A stretch of 64,000 nucleotides of DNA, from NCBI RefSeq assembly GCF_001677475.2, contig NZ_CP015229.1; one strand, 5' to 3'. Position numbers and translations under genes: made by a program. Of this stretch, positions 14,570 through 27,075 are shown in pieces. The notes beneath the pieces were generated by a model. That model saw nothing but the letters and a program-made list of their open reading frames with translations. It made no database searches and was not told the origin of the DNA. This stretch comes from Escherichia coli (lineage in GTDB: Bacteria; Pseudomonadota; Gammaproteobacteria; Enterobacterales; Enterobacteriaceae). Position 1 is the stretch's first letter; each line of letters begins with the position of its first letter.

Positions 14570-15702
<1,133 letters not shown>

Positions 15703-15710
<8 letters not shown>

Positions 15711-17511
15711 TCGCCTTCTCCTTCTTATTGGCTGCTTCCGCCTTATCGGCTGCATCCGCTTCGCCACCGTAAACACGTTTAGCTGGCGGCAGCGTAGTAA
15801 TCTTCACGTCGCTGTACTCCAGGCGAGTCGTGCCATCAGCATCGCGGAAGGCGAGGGTGTGTTTGAGGAAGTTGACGTCGTCACGCTCGGTGCAACCTTC
15901 GTCCAGACGCTGGTGTGCGCCGCGGGACTCTTTACGTGCCATTGCGGAGTGCGCCATACATTCAGCAACGTTCAGACCGTGGCCCAGTTCAATGGTGTAG
16001 AGCAGGTCGGTGTTGAACACGCTGGAGGTGTCGGTGATGCGCACGCGCTTGAAGCGTTCCTGCAGCTCAGCCAGCTTGTCGATGGTTTTCTGCATCAGTT
16101 CCGGCGTACGGTAGATACCGCAACCTTCTTCCATAGCCAGGCCCATTTCGTCGCGGATCTTCGCCCAGTTTTCGCCGCCATCCTGGTTAACCAGATCTTT
16201 CAGACGTTGTTCAACGCCAGCTGCCTGCGCTTCAATTGCCGCTTCGTTGCCATTACCGGCAGTTGCTGCACGCTCTGTCGCTTGTTCACCGGCCAGACGG
16301 CCGAAGACCACCAGTTCCGCCAGGGAGTTAGAACCCAGACGGTTTGCACCGTGCAGACCAACAGAGGAACATTCACCCACGGCGAACAGACCTTTAATGC
16401 GGGTTTCACAGTTCTGATCGGTTTCGATACCGCCCATGGTGTAGTGTGCGGTCGGACGTACCGGAATCGGTTCTTTAACCGGATCGACGCCAACGTACGC
16501 TTTCGCCAGTTCGCAGATGAACGGCAGACGTTCATGCAGTTTTTTCTCGCCGAGGTGACGCAGGTCGAGATAAACCACATCACCACGCGGTGTGGAGATG
16601 GTGTTGCCTTTACGCCATTCGTGCCAGAAGGCCTGAGAAACTTTGTCGCGTGGACCCAGTTCCATATACTTGTTTTTCGGCTCGCCCAGCGGAGTTTCCG
16701 GGCCCATGCCGTAATCTTGCAGATAACGGTAGCCATTTTTGTTGACCAGAATACCGCCTTCACCACGGCAGCCTTCGGTCATCAGGATACCGGAACCTGG
16801 CAGACCGGTTGGGTGATACTGAACGAATTCCATGTCACGCAGCGGAACGCCGTGGCTTAGCGCCATACCCATACCGTCACCGGTAACGATGCCGCCATTG
16901 GTATTGTAACGATAAACGCGACCCGCACCGCCGGTAGCCATAACGACCGCGTTAGCACGGATCTGCACCAGCGTGCCTTCCATCATGTTCATTGCTACCA
17001 GGCCGCGAACATGACCATCATCAACCAGAATATCCAGCACGAAATGTTCGTCAAAACGCTGGATCTGCGGGAATTGCAGAGAGGTCTGGAACAGCGTGTG
17101 CAGCATATGGAAGCCGGTCTTATCGGCGGCGAACCAGGTACGCTCGATTTTCATGCCGCCGAAGCGACGTACGTTGACGCTACCATCCGGGCGACGGCTC
17201 CATGGGCATCCCCACAGTTCCAGTTGGGTCATTTCGGTGGGGCAGTGGTGGACGAAATAATCCACGACATCCTGCTCACACAACCAGTCGCCACCCGCGA
17301 CTGTATCGTGAAAGTGATATTCGAAGCTGTCATGATCCTGCGCGACAGCGGCGGAGCCCCCTTCTGCAGCAACGGTATGGCTACGCATCGGGTATACTTT
17401 TGAGATTAGTGCGATTTTTGCATTTGGATTTGCCTGCGCGGCAGCAATTGCAGCACGTAATCCCGCGCCACCGGCGCCTACAATGGCAAGATCGGCTTGA
17501 AAGGTTTGCAC
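15703..17511 (-). CDS. frdA: Fumarate reductase flavoprotein subunit
   Basis: 602-aa [29 protein letters not shown] (FAD-binding GxGxxG). Confidence 0.97.
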
Positions 17512-17644
17512 GACATTCCTCCAGATTGTTTTTATCCCACAGCCCCGTACTTCAGGGTAAGTGCCTGAAAGTTACGGTCTGCGAACGCTATTCCACTGCT
17601 CCTTTATAGGTACAACAGTATAGTCTGATGGATAAGTCTGAAAT

Positions 17645-17658
17645 TTGACGAGATCGAT
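17645..17658 (-). promoter_or_regulatory. Candidate FNR site of frd promoter
   Basis: ttgacgagatcgat resembles TTGAT-N4-ATCAA, about 135 bp upstream of frdA start. Confidence 0.45.
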
Positions 17659-17835
17659 TTTTTTAGTGCGCAAGAGGGCTAAATTATCACTGAAGATGAT
17701 TAATTTAATTACTAAACCATCAGATCGTGCTTTTTTTAGTCACTGCCCACCGTTGTTTGATTCCTGCGTAAAATTTGTCTCGCCGTCGCGTTGCGAGTAG
17801 ACTTCGTGCCCTTGTCAAAAACTGGAGATTTAACT

Positions 17836-18813
17836 ATGAGCGAAACGGCATCCTGGCAGCCGAGCGCATCCATTCCTAACTTATTAAAACGCGCGGCGAT
17901 TATGGCGGAGATCCGTCGTTTCTTTGCCGATCGTGGAGTGCTGGAGGTGGAGACGCCTTGTATGAGCCAGGCGACGGTAACCGATATTCATTTGGTCCCG
18001 TTTGAGACACGTTTCGTTGGCCCCGGGCATTCGCAGGGGATGAATCTCTGGTTAATGACCAGCCCGGAATACCATATGAAACGCCTGCTGGTTGCCGGTT
18101 GTGGGCCGGTATTCCAGCTGTGCCGCAGCTTCCGTAATGAAGAGATGGGGCGTTATCACAACCCTGAGTTCACTATGCTGGAGTGGTATCGACCGCACTA
18201 TGATATGTACCGGTTGATGAACGAGGTGGACGATCTCTTACAACAGGTGCTGGACTGCCCGGCAGCAGAAAGCCTTTCTTATCAACAAGCTTTCTTGCGT
18301 TATCTGGAAATTGACCCACTCTCTGCCGACAAAACGCAACTGCGGGAAGTGGCAGCGAAACTGGATTTGAGCAATGTTGCTGATACCGAAGAAGACCGCG
18401 ACACGTTGCTACAATTGCTGTTTACCTTTGGCGTAGAGCCAAATATTGGTAAAGAAAAACCGACCTTTGTGTACCACTTTCCAGCCAGCCAGGCATCACT
18501 GGCGCAAATCAGTACCGAAGATCATCGGGTCGCTGAACGCTTTGAGGTTTATTATAAAGGTATTGAGCTGGCGAATGGTTTCCATGAATTGACGGATGCC
18601 CGTGAGCAGCAACAACGCTTTGAACAAGATAACCGTAAGCGCGCGGCGCGCGGTTTGCCGCAGCACCCCATTGACCAGAATCTGATTGAAGCCTTGAAAG
18701 TCGGTATGCCTGACTGTTCCGGCGTGGCATTAGGTGTTGATCGTCTGGTGATGTTGGCGCTGGGCGCGGAGACACTGGCTGAAGTCATCGCCTTTAGCGT
18801 TGACCGGGCATAA
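17836..18813 (+). CDS. epmA: EF-P lysine-lysyltransferase EpmA (PoxA/GenX)
   Basis: ORF 17791..18813; start trimmed to [30 protein letters not shown] (325 aa); class II aaRS-like. Confidence 0.92.
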
Positions 18814-18842
18814 TTCTGAAAAATTACTGAATTAACAGCGAA

Positions 18843-18885
18843 GAATGGCGTGATAAGCGCCATTCTGTAGCATATGTTTTCATTT
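18843..18885 (+). terminator. Rho-independent terminator after epmA
   Basis: Hairpin gaatggcg-tgataag-cgccattc followed by T-rich tract. Confidence 0.65.
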
Positions 18886-19031
18886 TTCTGTTAAAGGCCA
18901 CAATTTAAGACTGGATATTTGATATCATCCAGGTATCAATTCTGTATTGGTTTTTACGCTGCCCGCTCAATGTTGGGCAGTGCAGTTCAGTGGGCGCGTT
19001 TTATACACGCGCTGAAATGAAGGATGGTTTC

Positions 19032-20534
19032 ATGCCTCACACGATAAAAAAGATGAGTCTGATAGGACTCATATTGATGATCTTTACTTCCGTATTTGGA
19101 TTTGCCAATAGCCCATCGGCTTATTACTTAATGGGTTATAGTGCGATTCCCTTTTATATATTTTCTGCATTGTTATTCTTTATTCCATTCGCCTTAATGA
19201 TGGCTGAAATGGGCGCTGCGTATCGCAAAGAAGAAGGAGGTATCTATTCCTGGATGAATAATAGTGTCGGACCACGTTTTGCCTTCATTGGTACGTTTAT
19301 GTGGTTTTCCTCTTATATCATCTGGATGGTGAGCACCTCCGCTAAAGTTTGGGTACCGTTCTCAACATTTCTCTACGGTAGCGACATGACCCAGCACTGG
19401 CGTATTGCCGGACTGGAACCTACGCAGGTGGTTGGTCTGCTGGCAGTGGCATGGATGATTCTGGTCACCGTCGTTGCTTCAAAAGGGATTAATAAAATTG
19501 CCCGCATTACTGCGGTGGGCGGTATTGCAGTAATGTGCCTGAATTTAGTATTACTGTTAGTAAGCATTACTATTTTGTTATTAAATGGTGGGCATTTCGC
19601 GCAGGATATTAATTTCCTGACATCACCGAACCCAGGATATCAATCCGGTCTGGCGATGCTATCGTTTGTGGTATTTGCCATTTTTGCCTATGGCGGAATT
19701 GAAGCGGTTGGTGGTCTGGTCGATAAAACGGAAAATCCAGAAAAGAACTTTGCCAAAGGTATTGTTTTTGCCGCTATTGTTATTTCAATCGGTTATTCGC
19801 TGGCAATATTTTTATGGGGCGTCAGCACAAACTGGCAGCAGGTATTAAGTAATGGTTCCGTTAACCTCGGCAATATTACCTATGTGCTGATGAAGAGCCT
19901 CGGGATGACGCTGGGTAACGCACTGCATTTGTCACCTGAAGCGTCATTGTCGCTGGGCGTATGGTTTGCGCGTATTACCGGACTTTCGATGTTCCTCGCT
20001 TATACCGGTGCGTTCTTTACGCTTTGCTATTCACCGCTGAAAGCCATCATCCAGGGGACGCCGAAAGCGTTGTGGCCGGAACCGATGACGCGCCTGAATG
20101 CGATGGGGATGCCGTCTATCGCCATGTGGATGCAGTGCGGGTTGGTTACTGTCTTCATCCTGCTGGTTTCGTTTGGTGGCGGTACCGCATCGGCGTTCTT
20201 TAACAAGCTGACGCTGATGGCGAACGTGTCTATGACGCTTCCTTACCTGTTCCTCGCGCTGGCTTTCCCATTCTTTAAAGCACGTCAGGATCTCGACAGA
20301 CCATTTGTGATTTTCAAAACGCGTATGTCGGCAATGATTGCGACGGTGGTTGTCGTTCTGGTGGTGACATTTGCGAACATCTTCACCATCATTCAGCCTG
20401 TGGTTGAAGCCGGAGACTGGGACAGCACATTGTGGATGATTGGCGGCCCTGTCTTCTTCTCGCTGTTAGCGATGGCGATATACCAGAACTATTGCAGTCG
20501 CATGGCGAATAAACCTGAGTTAGCTCTCGACTGA
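19032..20534 (+). CDS. yjeM: APC-superfamily transporter YjeM
   Basis: ORF 18990..20534; start chosen at MPHTIKKMSLIGLILMIF (500 aa). Confidence 0.8.
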   Translation: MPHTIKKMSLIGLILMIFTSVFGFANSPSAYYLMGYSAIPFYIFSALLFFIPFALMMAEMGAAYRKEEGGIYSWMNNSVGPRFAFIGTFMWFSSYIIWMVSTSAKVWVPFSTFLYGSDMTQHWRIAGLEPTQVVGLLAVAWMILVTVVASKGINKIARITAVGGIAVMCLNLVLLLVSITILLLNGGHFAQDINFLTSPNPGYQSGLAMLSFVVFAIFAYGGIEAVGGLVDKTENPEKNFAKGIVFAAIVISIGYSLAIFLWGVSTNWQQVLSNGSVNLGNITYVLMKSLGMTLGNALHLSPEASLSLGVWFARITGLSMFLAYTGAFFTLCYSPLKAIIQGTPKALWPEPMTRLNAMGMPSIAMWMQCGLVTVFILLVSFGGGTASAFFNKLTLMANVSMTLPYLFLALAFPFFKARQDLDRPFVIFKTRMSAMIATVVVVLVVTFANIFTIIQPVVEAGDWDSTLWMIGGPVFFSLLAMAIYQNYCSRMANKPELALD

Positions 20535-20684
20535 TCATATGAAATCCTGCAACTCATCGTCTCTCCGGCGATGAGTTGTCAGGAAGTAATGCGTATGGAT
20601 GATACTCTCCAGGGCCGGTGATAACTGAAGATGATGTTAAGCTGCTAAATGAGCCACGTTGACATCATTTGGCAGCTTCATGCA

Positions 20685-23600
20685 TTACAAACTTCCCGCC
20701 TGACGACCTTTGCCCGCAGACGTCAGCGTTCTCCCCGTTTGCTTACCGTTGAGGCTTTCCAGACGCATCTGGAAGGGCGGGAATGGCATATCGATACCGT
20801 GGGCGTGGAAGCCTGCCAGAATCAGCTGGTGGATCTCATGGCGTAGCGGCATACGGTGACCCATCTCAGCGGCGTAAATACGCAGCTCGAAAATCTGAAT
20901 CCCCTGTTGCAGATCCACCAGGAAGACTTCCGGTGCCGGGTTGTCGATCACCAGCGAGCAGCGACGCGCTGCGGTGAGCAGGATTTCCGTCACTTCTTCA
21001 CTGTTGGCATCGGCAGGAGCCGGAATCGTCAATACCACGCGCGTGACCGAGTCAGAGAGCGACCAGTTGATAAACTGCTCGGTAATAAACGCCTTGTTCG
21101 GCACGATAATTTCTTTGCGGTCCCAGTCGCTGATGGTGGTGGCGCGGGTGTTAATTTTTGTCACGCTACCGGTGAGATCGCGGATCGTCACCGTATCGCC
21201 AATGCGAATCGGTTTTTCGAACAGGATGATCAGGCCAGAGATAAAGTTGGCGAAAATTTCCTGCAAACCAAAACCGAGACCAACACCGAGCGCGGCGACC
21301 AGCCACTGCAATTTCGACCACTCAATACCAATCATTGAGAAGCCGACCAGCCCGCCAATCAGCATCAGCAGATATTTGGTGATGGTGGTGATGGCGTAAC
21401 CCGTACCCGGCGTTAAATCCAGGTGCTGCAAAATCGCCAGTTCCAGCAGCGCGGGCAGGTTGCGCACCAGCTGCGTGGTGATGATAAATACCAGAATGGC
21501 AATCAGCACCGCACCGAGGGTAATCGGCTCCAGACTTTCCACGCCCTGTACCGTGGAAGTGACATCCCACAGCGAAATATTTTCGAGGAAGCCGAAAGCG
21601 GAATGGATTTCTGACCACAGCACAATGACCGAAAGCAGGGCGATCAACATCAAAATTGAGCGCACCAGCCGCAAGGATTGCGCACTGATGGCATCGAGAT
21701 CGACTTCGCTTTCATCGACTTCAATTGCCCCTTCCGGGCTACTGTGATGATGCGCTTCCTCTTCGCCACGTGCACGTTGCGCTAACATCTCTGCCCGGCG
21801 ATGCTTCGCCCGGTCAAACGCCAGCCTGCGGCGTTGGATCAGCATCCAGCGGCGGATAACGTGATAAACCACCAGTAGCAGGAACCAGATGGCAACCGAG
21901 GTTTCAAGCCTCGCTAACAGTGCCTGCGCCGTTGCCAGATAACCCACCGCCGACGCCAGAATAGCAACCAGTGGCGCGCCAATCATCATGTTCCACAGCA
22001 TATGGTTGGTAATGTTGTCGCCGCTACCCTCTTTGTTGAGATACAGCGGGATACCGGCCTTTTTCAGGCTGAGGGTGACCACCGCCAGCGCACCGCAAAT
22101 GAGGATAAAGCAAAGCCGTCCCAGCGAACCGGAAAATTCGCGGTCGTCGAGATTATCGAACATCATCAGCGCCATAATCAGCGGCACAATAAGCCCGATG
22201 CTCATCAGGTAGTAGCGCATCCCACGGGAAACCCGTTCGCGTGGCCAACCAAAATGAGCGATAAACAAGCCGTTCGGGCGGGCAAAGGTGGCGCAAATCA
22301 TCACTACCCACAGCAGCGGCACGGTGGCTGTTACGCCATCACCAATCGCGACCGCCAGCGGATAAGGCCACGCCTCGCGCAAGCCGTAACCCAGCGTCAT
22401 CCACAGCACTGGCAGCGGTGACGCGACGAGAATCGACCAGAAAAGAGTGCGTAACGTCAGCCAGAAGTGATCCTGAGTCACTTTGCCGACTTTCGCCGCC
22501 GAACGTTCAAGAAAACGGGTGAAATATCGGCGCGAGTAAATACTGCAACCGACCAGAATCAACGCGCCAAACAGCGGCAAAATCGTCTCTTTGCTGGTCA
22601 GCATCATCACACTGGCTTTGCCCAACTGACTGAAGGTGTCCAGCGAAATGAGACGACGCAGATCCTGGGCGATTTCCAGCGGCCAGGCGATGGTCATCGG
22701 ACGTACGTCAGAGGTCCAGAACAGATAGCGGTGCGTCGCTTCATTCACCTCTTTCAGCGCATCCTCCAGTTGCCCGTTGGAGACTTTCAGCTTGGTCAGT
22801 TCCAGTAGTAGCGTGTCGCCACCCTGCAACAATGAGTTCAGCAACTCACGCTGAGTGCGTAGCTGTGCTTCGAGAATACGGTTTTGCTCGGCAGTCAGCG
22901 GCTGACCGTCGGCCTGATGAATTTGCCTTAGCTGCGGCTGTTTATTAAGCAGATCCTCATAACGTAACCGTTGCACACGCAACTGCGCCATTTCGGTATC
23001 AAGCTGTTGTGGTTTTGGCATTTCCGGCAGCCGTGCCACCTGCGCCCGCAACGCTTCGCCGAGCAGATTGGACGATCCCAGCCATTGCGACTGTTCACGC
23101 AGCGTATTCAACGCCTGCCGGACCTGTAACGTCTGGCTGGCAGCCTGACGCTGTTGCGAGGCAACGAGATCCATCCGCTGCGCCTGTTGATTCAGCGCTG
23201 CCGATAGTTCGCGGTTTATTTTGAATTGCGCGACGATATCTTTCGGCAAATCGGCACTGTTTTCTGCCAGCAATTCGGTACTTTCCAGCGCCCGCTCCGC
23301 CTCAAGCTGACGTTGGCTGTTCAACTGATTACGTAAGGTCTGCAAATACGCATCCAGTTGCTGGCTCTCTTTTTCCGCCAGCTCTGAGCGTAAGCGCGCT
23401 AATTCCTGGCGGTTATTGGCGGACAGCTGCGCCAGTTCCAGTTCATCGACGAGCGCTTTCAGGCGTGCGGAGTCAGACTGCAACGCGAAATTTTGTGCCT
23501 GATTGAGCGGGGAATTGCCGGTAAGCGTCCCCAGGCGGCGCTCGATTTCATTTAACTGACGGCGGGCATCGGTTTGCTGTTGCGGCAGTTGATTCAGCGA

Positions 23601-24008
23601 ATCGGCAATCTCGCGGGCGCGTTCCTGCTCTTGCTGGGCCTGACGGCTTTTATCCAGCAACTGGCTGCTGACCTGGAGAATTTCCTGATTCAGCGCGTCG
23701 GTAGACATTCCCGGTGACACGCTGCGCGGCTCGTCACGCATGTTGTTTAATTGCGCGCGCAGAGTAGCGGAGAGTTTCGGATAATTATCAATGACTTCTT
23801 GATATTGCTTGATGCGCTCAAGGGAACCTTTCCGTTCCTCAAGCGCATTTAAGGCAGACTGGAGCGCCTCTACGACTTCCGGTTGCGCGGGTTTCGCCGC
23901 TTTTGCCTGCTCCAGTTCTTGTGAGATTTGTTTGCTATCGGGGGCCGTCGCGGCGTACGCCCCCCAACTGAGGCACCAGGCCATCAGAAAAGTGATAATC
24001 AGGCGCAC
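20685..24008 (-). CDS. mscM: Mechanosensitive channel MscM (YjeP), MscS family
   Basis: 1107-aa ORF: signal peptide, long Q/E/R-rich coiled-coil periplasmic domain, C-terminal MscS-like membrane domain. Confidence 0.93.
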   Translation of the reverse strand: MRLIITFLMAWCLSWGAYAATAPDSKQISQELEQAKAAKPAQPEVVEALQSALNALEERKGSLERIKQYQEVIDNYPKLSATLRAQLNNMRDEPRSVSPGMSTDALNQEILQVSSQLLDKSRQAQQEQERAREIADSLNQLPQQQTDARRQLNEIERRLGTLTGNSPLNQAQNFALQSDSARLKALVDELELAQLSANNRQELARLRSELAEKESQQLDAYLQTLRNQLNSQRQLEAERALESTELLAENSADLPKDIVAQFKINRELSAALNQQAQRMDLVASQQRQAASQTLQVRQALNTLREQSQWLGSSNLLGEALRAQVARLPEMPKPQQLDTEMAQLRVQRLRYEDLLNKQPQLRQIHQADGQPLTAEQNRILEAQLRTQRELLNSLLQGGDTLLLELTKLKVSNGQLEDALKEVNEATHRYLFWTSDVRPMTIAWPLEIAQDLRRLISLDTFSQLGKASVMMLTSKETILPLFGALILVGCSIYSRRYFTRFLERSAAKVGKVTQDHFWLTLRTLFWSILVASPLPVLWMTLGYGLREAWPYPLAVAIGDGVTATVPLLWVVMICATFARPNGLFIAHFGWPRERVSRGMRYYLMSIGLIVPLIMALMMFDNLDDREFSGSLGRLCFILICGALAVVTLSLKKAGIPLYLNKEGSGDNITNHMLWNMMIGAPLVAILASAVGYLATAQALLARLETSVAIWFLLLVVYHVIRRWMLIQRRRLAFDRAKHRRAEMLAQRARGEEEAHHHSSPEGAIEVDESEVDLDAISAQSLRLVRSILMLIALLSVIVLWSEIHSAFGFLENISLWDVTSTVQGVESLEPITLGAVLIAILVFIITTQLVRNLPALLELAILQHLDLTPGTGYAITTITKYLLMLIGGLVGFSMIGIEWSKLQWLVAALGVGLGFGLQEIFANFISGLIILFEKPIRIGDTVTIRDLTGSVTKINTRATTISDWDRKEIIVPNKAFITEQFINWSLSDSVTRVVLTIPAPADANSEEVTEILLTAARRCSLVIDNPAPEVFLVDLQQGIQIFELRIYAAEMGHRMPLRHEIHQLILAGFHAHGIDMPFPPFQMRLESLNGKQTGRTLTSAGKGRQAGSL

Positions 24009-24029
24009 GTCAGCGTTTCCTTTGATGGA

Positions 24030-24998
24030 TTAGACCTGGTCTTTTTTGTCGTCAACCAATGGGCTGGCGTCGTGTTCTGCTTCGATCTCTTCAGCAGGAA
24101 GCGGGGCGGGTTCAGCGTCTGGCGTAACAAAGGTTTCGGTAGATACTGCCAGCGGCTGGCCAATTTTCGTGACAGACAGGCTTTCCAGTTGCTCAACCAG
24201 ATTCACTTTACCCGGTGCAAACAGGTTGATAACGGTGGAACCGAGTTTAAAGCGACCCATTTCCTGGCCTTTCAGCAGTGCCACAGAACCGTCGTTTTCC
24301 CCGGCAGGCCAGGTCCAGCGCTTGATGATACCTTCGCGCGGCGGCGTAATGGTGCCCGCCCAGACCGTCTCAATGCTGCCTACAATCGTCGCCCCGACCA
24401 GAATCTGCGCCATTGGGCCAAATTCGGTATCGAACAGGCAGATCACGCGTTCGTTACGGGCAAACAGATTCGGCACGTTCTGAGCGGTGAGATGGTTAAC
24501 GGAAAAGAGATCGCCCGGCACGTAGATCATCTCACGCAGAATACCGTTGCACGGCATGTGTACGCGGTGGTAGTCACGCGGGGAGAGGTAAGTGGTCACA
24601 AACGTACCGTTGCGGAACAGGTCCGCCATCAGATAGTTGCCTGCCAGCAGGGCTTCGAGGCTGTAGTTGTGGCCTTTGGCTTGCAGGATTTTATCTTCTT
24701 CGATTTTACCCAACTGGCTGATAACGCCATCGGCAGGCATAACCAGTACATTCGGATCGGTATCGATTGGGCGTACTTCGTCACGCAGCGGACGGACAAA
24801 GAATTCGTTAAAGGTGCGGTAGCTGGCGGTATCCGGCTTTTGCGCCTCTTTCATGTCGACCTTGTAGTATTTAACGAACAGATCGATAACCAGTTTTGTC
24901 AGCCATCCTGCCCGCTTGCTTGCGCCCCAACCCGCCAGGCGAGTAAGCCATAGTTTCGGCAGAATGTACTGTAGCGAAAGTTTAAATGAATTTAACAA
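24030..24998 (-). CDS. psd: Phosphatidylserine decarboxylase proenzyme
   Basis: 322-aa ORF with LGST self-cleavage motif ([11 protein letters not shown]). Confidence 0.95.
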
Positions 24999-25095
24999 GG
25001 TAGCCTCCAGGCCATTGTTTTGTCGTTCCTGATCCGGCCTACATGCCGGATCCTGAAAAAAAAGGGGACGATTCTAACGACGGTTAGCTTAATTG

Positions 25096-26148
25096 TCAGT
25101 CATCCGTATCAGAAAAGTTTTTACGCGTTTTTACCTGCGCCATGCTTTCCAGAATACGGTGATAGTTTTCGAAACGGGTTTCCGCGATTTTTCCTTCCTC
25201 AACCGCTTCCCGGATAGCGCAGCCCGGATCGGTATCGTGTTTGCAATCGCGATATTTACACAGACCTAAGTAGTCATGGAATTCGACAAAGCCCTGAGTG
25301 ATTTGTTCCGGCTCCAGGTGCCAGAGGCCGAACTCACGCACTCCTGGGGAGTCAATCACATCACCGCCGTGCGGGAAGTGATACAGCCGAGCGGCGGTCG
25401 TGGTGTGCTGACCGAGACCCGAGTTGTCAGAGACATCGTTGGTCAGGATCTCTTTTTGCAGCCCCAGCAACGCGTTCAGCAGGCTGGATTTACCAACGCC
25501 AGACTGCCCGGCAAAAATGCTGATGCGCCCGGTCAACGCCTCTTCCAGCGGTTTCAGCCCATCCTGAGTATGGCTGGAAACCATCAATACGCGATAACCG
25601 ATATTGCGGTAGATATCCATCTGCTCGTTGACGAATGCCATGCCTTCGTCGTCCAGCAGGTCTATCTTGTTGAGCACAATAATCGGCTCAATCTGCAAGG
25701 TTTCGCAGGCCACCAGGTAACGGTCGATAATATTGAGCGACAGCTCCGGCAAAATGGCGGAGACAATGACAATCTGGTCGATGTTGGCTGCAATAGGTTT
25801 CACGCCGTCGTAGAAATCCGGACGCGTCAACACCGAGGTGCGCTCATGCACCGCTTCCACGATCCCTTTGACATTTACGCCTTCCGCCGCCGGTTTACCC
25901 GGACGCCAGACTACGCGGTCGCCGGTCACCAGCGAACGGATGGTACGGCGAATATTGCAGCGGTGAACGTCGCCATCGGCGGATTCCACATCAGCGTGCA
26001 TACCAAAGCGGCTGATGACGATACCTTCATCAGGCTCGCCAAACAGATTGTCGTCGTAGTCGGGCTTCTCCTTAGACGTTTTAAGACGACGCTGGTGATT
26101 GGCGTTCACGCGGCGCTGCTGGCCTTTGGAGAGTTTATTTTTACTCAA
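25096..26148 (-). CDS. rsgA: Ribosome small-subunit biogenesis GTPase RsgA
   Basis: ORF 25096..26181; start set at TTG (plus-strand caa at 26146-26148) giving 350 aa; P-loop GQSGVGKSS and C-terminal zinc finger. Confidence 0.85.
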
Positions 26149-26242
26149 TCGTACAGACTCCTGGTCGCCCCTGATGGGCAAAACATCTATGATACACGCA
26201 ATTGTGGATCAATATAGTCACTGTGAATGGGTGGAAAATAGC

Positions 26243-26788
26243 ATGAGTGCCAATGAAAACAACCTGATTTGGATCGATCTTGAGATGACCGGTCTGGATC
26301 CCGAGCGTGATCGCATTATTGAGATTGCCACGCTGGTGACCGATGCCAACCTGAATATTCTGGCAGAAGGGCCGACCATTGCAGTACATCAGTCCGATGA
26401 ACAGCTGGCGCTGATGGATGACTGGAACGTGCGCACCCATACCGCCAGCGGGCTGGTAGAGCGTGTGAAAGCGAGCACGATGGGCGATCGTGAAGCTGAA
26501 CTGGTAACGCTCGAATTCTTAAAACAGTGGGTGCCTGCGGGAAAATCGCCGATTTGCGGTAACAGCATCGGCCAGGATCGTCGCTTCCTGTTTAAATATA
26601 TGCCGGAGCTGGAAGCCTACTTCCACTACCGTTATCTCGATGTCAGCACGCTGAAAGAGCTGGCGCGCCGCTGGAAGCCGGAAATTCTGGATGGTTTTAC
26701 CAAGCAGGGGACGCATCAGGCGATGGATGATATCCGTGAATCGGTGGCGGAGCTGGCTTACTACCGCGAGCATTTTATCAAGCTGTAA
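26243..26788 (+). CDS. orn: Oligoribonuclease
   Basis: ORF 26099..26788; start trimmed to [23 protein letters not shown] (181 aa, DEDDh exonuclease). Confidence 0.93.
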
Positions 26789-26914
26789 ATTTTTTCCTGG
26801 TCACGTAAGCGCCGTAATCCACTTGCGGTGGCGTGATTTTGACGCTAAATTGAACGTCTTGCCGATAATTTCAGCACTTGAGATAAAAACTCAAAAAAAA
26901 ATTTTTTAGGGGGG

Positions 26915-26942
26915 TTGCAGAGGGAAAGATTTCTCGTATAAT
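26915..26942 (+). promoter_or_regulatory. Promoter of glyV-glyX-glyY tRNA operon
   Basis: TTGCAG (26915-26920) - 16 nt - TATAAT (26937-26942), upstream A/T-tract, GC-rich discriminator gcgcctcc. Confidence 0.7.
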
Positions 26943-26999
26943 GCGCCTCCCGTAACGACGCAGAAATGCGAAAATTACGAAAGCAAAATTAAGTAGTAC

Positions 27000-27075
<76 letters not shown>

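What the first reader, a model, noticed from the sequence alone, without database searches (positions are those of the whole stretch)
20535..20684. Only 150 bp between convergent yjeM and mscM: the K-12 small genes yjeN/yjeO appear absent
As I recall the K-12 map, two small membrane-protein genes (yjeN, yjeO) lie between yjeM and mscM(yjeP). Here the two stop codons are separated by 150 bp containing only a hairpin (caactcatcg…cgatgagttg). That would be a second strain-specific indel in this window, implying the genome is not K-12 itself.
Basis: partly seen in the sequence, partly recalled or inferred. Interest (0 to 1): 0.3.

Follow-up and report, generated by a model that had tools for sequence, protein, structure and literature searches.

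The report
Common yjeN–yjeO deletion allele
The two small K-12 genes yjeN and yjeO really are missing here, but this is an old, ordinary deletion allele shared by about 44% of completely sequenced E. coli genomes, and it still carries the first 13 codons of yjeN as a scar.

Summary
yjeM (19032-20534, +) and mscM (20685-24008, -) converge on a 150-bp spacer (20535-20684). MG1655 has a 705-bp spacer there, holding yjeN and yjeO.

Of 5,426 complete E. coli genomes, 2,394 carry this spacer. It is 100% identical in O157:H7 and E. coli W. Another 2,153 carry yjeN and yjeO, and about 877 carry yjeO alone.

The spacer has four parts:
- a stem-loop after yjeM;
- the yjeM-yjeN intergenic region;
- the first 13 codons of yjeN, now frameshifted (MDDTLQGR*);
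- a second stem-loop, homologous to the yjeO-mscM hairpin of E. albertii and E. whittamii.

Removing 588 bp from the E. albertii spacer (yjeN codon 14 to the yjeO stop) reproduces this layout. yjeN also lies at this site in Salmonella. The short form is therefore an old deletion at a 3-5-nt microhomology, not an insertion in K-12. It is an ordinary accessory-gene polymorphism of low interest.

The parts
19032..20534 (+). yjeM, a glutamate/GABA-family (APC) transporter of 500 aa; intact
   Evidence: NF011775 862.7 bits against a cut-off of 400. Coordinates map onto the RefSeq yjeM of EC1515 (L002 533-2035 corresponds to window 19032-20534).
20498..20684 (.). Tract where the window haplotype and the K-12 haplotype stop aligning at high identity. 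It covers the last 12 codons of yjeM plus the whole spacer.
   Evidence: blastn of L001 (BW25113) against the window aligns up to 20497 and resumes at 20685. Alignment A1 shows the divergent yjeM 3' end.
20535..20684 (.). The 150-bp yjeM/mscM spacer, i.e. the short allele
   Evidence: It is 100% identical in E. coli O157:H7, E. coli W and others. It is present at >=80% coverage in 2,394 of 5,426 complete genomes, and no feature is annotated under it.
20545..20584 (+). Hairpin 1, the stem-loop just after the yjeM stop.
   Evidence: MFE and centroid structures. In 10 Escherichia alleles, 12 of 12 pairs are kept in 100% of cells, and 4 pairs are changed on both sides between the two allele types. 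No U-run follows, so it is not called a canonical intrinsic terminator.
20585..20594 (+). Relic of the yjeM-yjeN intergenic / ribosome-binding region (GGAAGTAATGCGT)
   Evidence: Aligns with GGAAAGGAAGACGTT upstream of intact yjeN in strain 2020N21-246-1, E. albertii and E. coli SCPM-O-B-8794.
20595..20634 (+). Relic of yjeN codons 1-13. The ATG is kept, a 1-nt deletion shifts the frame, and it now reads MDDTLQGR* instead of MDDTSRDPAITEDE...
   Evidence: Local alignment of spacer positions 1-100 to the yjeM-yjeN region of L004 (score 117) and L001. Translation.
20630..20639 (.). Deletion junction GAAGATGA|TGTTA. The TGA can be read as part of yjeN codons 12-13 or as the yjeO stop codon.
   Evidence: Left flank in E. 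albertii is GAAGATGA^AATC and right flank is TTGGTGA^TTGAAGCTGCC. The same junction is found in EC1515, E. coli E69 and Escherichia sp. MOD1-EC7003.
20639..20678 (.). Hairpin 2, next to the mscM stop codon. Arms are 20639-20652 and 20665-20678, with a 12-nt loop.
   Evidence: Folds on both strands. It is homologous to the yjeO-mscM intergenic hairpin GAAGCTGCCAGA..TCCGGCAGCTTCA(C/T)GCA of E. albertii L006 and E. whittamii L008, not to K-12's GCCGGATTGGTTCATCCGGC.
20685..24008 (-). mscM (yjeP), the miniconductance mechanosensitive channel of 1107 aa; intact
   Evidence: NF008180 2199.9 bits against a cut-off of 809. Five MscS-type Pfam domains.

Best explanation
The 150-bp spacer is the scar of an old deletion of about 590 bp. 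The ancestral Escherichia arrangement was yjeM - hairpin 1 - yjeN - yjeO - hairpin 2 - mscM. The deletion removed everything from codon 14 of yjeN to the stop codon of yjeO. It most likely arose by illegitimate recombination or replication slippage at a 3-5-nt microhomology (GATGA / GGTGA). What remains is the stem-loop after yjeM, the yjeN ribosome-binding region, 13 decayed yjeN codons and the stem-loop next to mscM. Each convergent gene therefore keeps its own 3' stem-loop, and both flanking genes are intact. The allele has since persisted, and probably moved by homologous recombination, as one of three common alleles in E. coli: short, yjeN+yjeO, and yjeO only. The window simply carries the short allele. 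Shown: the anatomy, the homologies, the allele frequencies and the outgroup states. Inferred: the direction of change (deletion), the microhomology mechanism and the 3'-end role of the two hairpins.
For: 1) Spacer positions 1-100 align with the yjeM-yjeN intergenic region plus the first 39 nt of yjeN of intact alleles, including the ATG. The relic is frameshifted, with a stop after 8 codons.
2) The last roughly 46 nt align with the yjeO-mscM hairpin of E. albertii and E. whittamii.
3) A virtual 588-bp deletion in the E. albertii spacer gives a sequence colinear with the window spacer (112 of 153 columns identical). The short alleles in E. coli EC1515, E. coli E69 and Escherichia sp. MOD1-EC7003 share the same junction. 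MOD1-EC7003 has a less decayed yjeN leader.
4) Outgroups: yjeN+yjeO lie at this site in E. albertii, Escherichia sp. E1V33 and E. coli SCPM-O-B-8794. A yjeN homologue (69% identity) lies alone between yjeM and mscM in Salmonella enterica. yjeN at this site is therefore older than E. coli.
5) Population: 2,394 genomes have the short allele and 3,030 have yjeN/yjeO DNA (2,153 with both genes), which sums to 5,424 of the 5,425 genomes that have the region.
6) MG1655 has the 705-bp form.
7) Hairpin 1 is kept by compensatory change: 12 of 12 pairs, 4 changed on both sides.
Against: Most other Enterobacteriaceae (Citrobacter, Enterobacter, Klebsiella, Kluyvera, S. enterica subsp. diarizonae) have a 35-95-bp gene-free spacer. 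At a deeper level, 'empty' could therefore be the older state. However, their spacers are unrelated in sequence to this one.

The microhomology is only 3-5 nt. The sequence just right of the junction (TGTTAAGC against TTGAAGC) differs by an indel and a substitution from the E. albertii model, so the exact breakpoint cannot be fixed.

No extant E. coli allele examined among the few intact alleles fetched combines intact yjeN-yjeO with the window-type hairpin 2. The direct progenitor is inferred from sister species.

Neither hairpin is followed by a U-run, so a terminator function is not established.
Confidence: 0.88

Rival explanations
1. The short form is ancestral, and yjeN-yjeO was inserted in the lineage leading to K-12. 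On this view the window shows the unoccupied site.
For: Most non-Escherichia Enterobacteriaceae have a short, gene-free yjeM/mscM spacer. Other genera carry unrelated or partly related cassettes (a 236-aa ORF plus DUF2645) at the same junction, so the site does accept insertions.
Against: The short allele contains the yjeN leader, the ATG and 13 codons in decayed, frameshifted form. An unoccupied site would not have these. Its right end matches the sequence downstream of yjeO in E. albertii and E. whittamii. yjeN occupies the site in Salmonella, and yjeN+yjeO occupy it in E. albertii.
Confidence: 0.05
2. The deletion did not happen in this genome's own lineage. The lineage acquired the ready-made short allele by homologous recombination from another E. 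coli. This rival concerns history, not what the sequence is.
For: The 150-bp spacer is 100% identical to that of O157:H7, E. coli W and many others. By contrast, the surrounding 1.2 kb matches every complete genome listed at no more than 98.9% (one unlisted record is counted at >=99%), and the surrounding 22 kb at no more than 98.4%. The short allele is also found in Escherichia sp. MOD1-EC7003 and E. coli E69, and intact alleles in E. albertii, Escherichia sp. E1V33 and E. coli SCPM-O-B-8794; these records were returned as separate entries of a one-genome-per-species collection.
Against: Zero differences in 150 bp at about 1.6% divergence is not statistically unusual (about 2.4 expected). No recombination breakpoints were mapped.
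Confidence: 0.4
3. The spacer is not just a scar. It encodes something functional of its own, such as a small RNA or an 8-codon peptide made from the yjeN relic.
For: The spacer folds strongly on both strands (z about -4.9). A promoter-like site (TTGTCA-16-GATGAT, 20576-20603) lies upstream of the relic ATG. The relic is well conserved among short alleles.
Against: No Rfam family matches at E<=1. PGAP annotates nothing there in any listed genome. The conservation is explained by the alleles being closely related. The relic has diverged about 25% from intact yjeN, more than the neighbouring hairpin has, as expected for relaxed constraint.
Confidence: 0.04
4. The short junction is an assembly or sequencing artefact.
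For: None.
Against: The same junction is in 2,394 complete genomes. Window 17685-27008 is 100% identical to an independent public assembly, GCA_033753315.1.
Confidence: 0.01

Closest known systems
The yjeM-mscM intergenic region of E. coli O157:H7, O145:H28, E. coli W and about 2,400 other complete genomes (short allele)
   Same: The 150-bp sequence is identical (100%), with the same flanking genes and orientation and no annotated feature in the spacer.
   Different: Nothing in the spacer itself. The flanking genes of the window differ by 1-2% from the complete genomes listed.
E. coli K-12 MG1655 yjeM-yjeN-yjeO-mscM (b4156-b4159)
   Same: The same flanking genes in the same convergent arrangement, and a stem-loop at the same place after yjeM.
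   Different: K-12 has a 705-bp spacer with intact yjeN (104 aa, no Pfam family) and yjeO (104 aa, DUF2645 inner-membrane protein). It also has a divergent last 12 codons of yjeM, a type II hairpin 1, and a different hairpin (GCCGGATTGGTTCATCCGGC) next to mscM.
E. albertii NBRC 107761 yjeM-yjeN-yjeO-mscM (L006)
   Same: The same type I hairpin 1 and yjeN leader on the left, and the same AAGCTGC...GGCAGCTTCA(C/T)GCA hairpin on the right. It is the best available model of the progenitor.
   Different: It retains 588 bp with intact yjeN and yjeO. The loop of hairpin 2 is 12 nt shorter.
The yjeO-only allele (e.g. E. coli 042 and Z0117EC0051; E. whittamii)
   Same: Another deletion allele at the same locus. 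It shows that this small operon is repeatedly eroded.
   Different: The breakpoints differ. Most of yjeN is lost while yjeO and the K-12-type flanks are kept.

Membership tests
YjeM (NCBIfam NF011775, glutamate/GABA-family transporter) | Whole-protein score above the curated equivalog cut-off (400 bits) | tested here: met
   862.7 bits, covering residues 16-509 of the 514-aa ORF.
MscM (NCBIfam NF008180, miniconductance mechanosensitive channel) | Whole-protein score above the curated equivalog cut-off (809 bits) | tested here: met
   2199.9 bits over the full length 1-1107. Five MscS-type Pfam domains.
yjeN gene | An open reading frame of about 104 codons homologous to K-12 YjeN between yjeM and mscM | tested here: not met
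   tblastn with YjeN finds nothing in window 15001-26000. Only a 40-nt relic of codons 1-13 remains, with a stop after 8 codons.
yjeO / DUF2645 (PF10840) | An ORF matching DUF2645 between yjeM and mscM | tested here: not met
   K-12 YjeO matches PF10840 at 140 bits. tblastn with YjeO finds nothing in window 15001-26000.
Short yjeM/mscM junction allele of E. coli | A 150-bp spacer with the junction GAAGATGA|TGTTAAGCTGC and both hairpins | tested here: met
   100% identity over 150 bp to O157:H7, E. coli W and others. 2,394 genomes match at >=80% coverage. The junction is shared with L002, L007 and L010.
Canonical intrinsic (Rho-independent) terminator | A G+C-rich stem-loop followed directly by a run of T/U | tested here: not met
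   0 terminator-like sites in 20400-20800 on either strand. Both hairpins lack a U-run. Hairpin 1 is nevertheless conserved by compensatory change, so a 3'-end role remains plausible but is unproven.
Any Rfam RNA family | A covariance-model match | tested here: not met
   No match at E<=1 in 20300-20900 on either strand.

The most novel reading that the evidence does not exclude
The convergent yjeM/mscM junction may be a recurrent landing and erosion site for small two-gene cassettes ending in a DUF2645 membrane protein. Examples are yjeN-yjeO in Escherichia and a 236-aa unknown protein plus DUF2645 in Citrobacter, Enterobacter and Pseudocitrobacter. Such cassettes could be orphan effector/immunity-like or stress modules, and their presence or absence could affect fitness. 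In K-12, yjeO is reported as sigma-E-induced, and it is reported as associated with growth in milk. The window would then be a natural null allele for testing this.
Probability: 0.1. Interest if true: 0.35.

Novelty: already known. Interest (0 to 1): 0.08.

Why it matters
It matters little. It shows the window comes from a non-K-12 E. coli lineage carrying the common yjeN/yjeO-null allele. It also corrects the idea that the indel is strain-specific. Practical points: yjeN and yjeO are dispensable accessory genes, absent from 44% of complete genomes (yjeN from about 60%). K-12-based expectations for this interval should not be transferred to other strains. The 13-codon yjeN relic should not be annotated as a gene.

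Tried and rejected
In K-12 (L001), 2020N21-246-1 (L004) and E. albertii (L006), only short and imperfect repeats were found. A perfect 9-nt repeat CGAAGATGA occurs at the left breakpoint and again inside yjeO (L004 2130-2138 and 2549-2557). The window sequence after GAAGATGA does not continue as yjeO, so that repeat did not mediate the deletion. Only the 3-5-nt GATGA/GGTGA microhomology fits.
2) Rfam scan of 20300-20900: nothing found.
3) Canonical terminator scan: nothing found.
4) Function of the lost genes. YjeN has no Pfam or NCBIfam family and no credible PDB relative (best E = 0.74). YjeO is only DUF2645.
5) Testing whether YjeN is related to the 236-aa protein that precedes DUF2645 genes in other genera: no BLASTP alignment. 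That protein has no significant Pfam match (best E = 0.17, below the cut-off) and no PDB hit.
6) Naming the source organism. Shigella genomes are not in the E. coli collection, so a Shigella origin could be neither tested nor excluded.

Full report
**Observation.** The + strand ORF ending at 20534 (TGA 20532-20534) is yjeM. It scores 862.7 bits against the NCBIfam equivalog NF011775 (cut-off 400). The - strand ORF 20685-24008 is mscM (NF008180, 2199.9 bits, cut-off 809). The two stop codons are separated by exactly 150 bp (20535-20684). It is the core of a longer stem-loop at 20545-20584. tblastn with K-12 YjeN and YjeO finds nothing in window 15001-26000.

**Comparison with K-12.** MG1655 (NC_000913.3) is annotated as follows:
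- yjeM 4383839-4385341 (+)
- yjeN 4385393-4385707 (+)
- yjeO 4385704-4386018 (+)
- mscM 4386047-4389370 (-)

That gives a 705-bp spacer. BW25113 is the same. The window is not K-12. Its flanking genes are 97.5-98.0% identical to BW25113. The best complete E. coli genome over 22 kb is O145:H28 at 98.4%, colinear in one piece. Window 17685-27008 is 100% identical to a public draft assembly, GCA_033753315.1, so the sequence is natural and independently assembled.

**How common the junction is.** Against 5,426 complete E. coli genomes, the 150-bp spacer is found at >=80% coverage in 2,394 genomes. Of all 2,669 matching genomes, 1,730 match at >=99% identity. It is 100% identical in O157:H7 strains, E. 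coli W and many others, and nothing is annotated under it. The K-12 yjeN-yjeO segment is found in 3,030 genomes. Of these, 2,153 hold both genes and about 877 hold only the yjeO half, for example strain 042. The sum 2,394 + 3,030 = 5,424 accounts for essentially every genome that has the region (5,425). This is a three-allele polymorphism with the short allele at 44%. It is not a strain-specific indel.

**Anatomy of the spacer.** It is more than one hairpin.
1. Hairpin 1 (20545-20584) follows the yjeM stop. Across ten Escherichia alleles, its 12 core pairs are formed in 100% of cells. Four pairs are changed on both sides between two allele types. Type I is CAACTCATCG...CGATGAGTTG, as in the window, O157 and E. 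albertii. Type II is GCCCTATCGTC...GACGATAGGGC, as in K-12, E. whittamii and Escherichia sp. E1V33. This is in effect one compensated haplotype difference, but it shows the stem is maintained.
2. Positions 20585-20634 align with the yjeN leader and the first 13 codons of yjeN in intact alleles. The ATG at 20595 is kept. A 1-nt deletion shifts the frame, so the relic reads MDDTLQGR*.
3. The junction is GAAGATGA|TGTTA at about 20630-20639.
4. Hairpin 2 (20639-20678) lies against the mscM stop. It has no counterpart in K-12, whose yjeO-mscM hairpin is GCCGGATTGGTTCATCCGGC. It is homologous to the hairpin downstream of yjeO in E. albertii and E. whittamii, GAAGCTGCCAGA...TCCGGCAGCTTCA(C/T)GCA.

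Neither hairpin is followed by a U-run, and no canonical terminator is called. No Rfam family matches.

**Direction of change.** A genome-collection scan with YjeM returned the junction from 79 loci, including several Escherichia genomes.
- E. albertii, Escherichia sp. E1V33 and E. coli SCPM-O-B-8794 have yjeN+yjeO.
- E. whittamii has yjeO plus a 3' relic of yjeN.
- E. coli E69 and Escherichia sp. MOD1-EC7003 have the short allele with the same junction. MOD1-EC7003 has a less decayed yjeN leader.

The YjeN family is tiny: 61 clusters among 5.8 billion proteins, and every hit that carries a source name is from Escherichia or Salmonella. In S. enterica, the 69%-identical homologue sits alone between yjeM and mscM. 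Deleting 588 bp from the E. albertii spacer, from yjeN codon 14 to the yjeO stop, gives a sequence colinear with the window spacer (112 of 153 columns identical). The main difference is a 12-nt larger loop in the window's hairpin 2.

The short allele is therefore a deletion derivative of an ancestral yjeM-yjeN-yjeO-mscM arrangement. The only shared sequence at the two breakpoints is GATGA/GGTGA, so illegitimate recombination or slippage at a microhomology is inferred, not shown. No longer direct repeats flank the segment. A perfect 9-nt repeat CGAAGATGA exists at the left breakpoint and inside yjeO, but the product sequence does not fit it.

**Relation to K-12.** The difference from K-12 is not a simple indel. 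The two haplotypes stop aligning at window 20497/20498, 37 nt before the yjeM stop. The C-termini are ...YCSRMANKPELALD* in the window and ...YCSRVAKNPQWAVE* in K-12. The alignment resumes at the mscM stop codon. An allele with window-type left flank plus intact yjeN-yjeO exists in about 271 genomes, for example strain 2020N21-246-1. Both flank types occur in other Escherichia species. The haplotypes are therefore old or are exchanged between species.

**What was lost.** yjeN encodes 104 aa with no Pfam, NCBIfam or PDB relative. yjeO encodes 104 aa and is a DUF2645 inner-membrane protein. In the literature, yjeN-yjeO (b4157-8) is listed as one transcription unit, with yjeO induced 2.6-fold in a sigma-E over-expression data set (PMC2731931). 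yjeO is treated as an accessory gene positively associated with growth in milk among mastitis isolates (PMC11390585). yjeN is discussed among uncharacterised 'dark' genes (PMC9976479). Nothing suggests that their absence is remarkable.

**Verdict.** It describes a common, ordinary accessory-gene deletion allele. The added value here is the anatomy of the scar (a yjeN relic and two conserved hairpins), the direction of change and the population frequency.

Noticed in passing
window 20498-20584; L001, L008 and L009 against L004, L006 and L010: The last 12 codons of yjeM and the hairpin after it exist as two old haplotypes, type I and type II. They differ by four fully compensated stem pairs. Both types occur in E. 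coli and in other Escherichia species, which suggests either an old polymorphism or exchange between species.
   Followed up: partly
L030 5503-6885, L032 5491-7160, L042 5503-6772, L043 5503-6762, L076 5503-6980: In Citrobacter werkmanii, C. youngae (upstream gene split), Enterobacter sp. ENT03, Pseudocitrobacter faecalis and Enterobacteriaceae bacterium 89, the same yjeM/mscM junction holds a two-gene cassette. It consists of a protein of about 236 aa with no significant Pfam match and no PDB hit, whose end overlaps a 104-105-aa DUF2645 (YjeO-like, 46-53% identity) gene. This partner is unrelated to YjeN by BLASTP.
   Followed up: partly
L087-L089 3001-3378; L018 5503-6024: Salmonella enterica carries a 125-aa YjeN homologue (69% identity) alone between yjeM and mscM. 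In the S. enterica subsp. arizonae type strain it is split into two ORFs. The subsp. diarizonae type strain has only a 61-bp spacer. The gene is therefore being lost repeatedly in Salmonella too.
   Followed up: partly
L003 2036-2475; L008 5504-5946: A third allele keeps yjeO but has lost most of yjeN. It is present in about 877 complete E. coli genomes, including strain 042, and in E. whittamii. This is an independent deletion with different breakpoints.
   Followed up: partly
window 10000-32000: No complete E. coli genome among 5,426 exceeds 98.4% identity to this 22-kb stretch; the best are O145:H28 strains. Yet a draft assembly (GCA_033753315.1) is 100% identical over 9.3 kb. The source lineage is absent from the complete-genome set. 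A Shigella origin could not be tested.
   Followed up: partly
window 20576-20603 (+): A sigma-70-like site (TTGTCA, 16 nt, GATGAT; 9 of 12 matches) overlaps the right arm of hairpin 1 and ends over the first codons of the relic yjeN (ATG at 20595). It may be a leftover of the yjeN promoter or a chance match (1 found against 0.3 expected).
   Followed up: no
L011, L012, L018, L020-L023, L029, L037, L070 spacers: In Citrobacter and Salmonella the short yjeM/mscM spacers are built of REP-like palindromes (e.g. GCCGGATAAG...CATCCGGC, TAGGCCTGATAAG...). These are unrelated to the Escherichia spacer.
   Followed up: no
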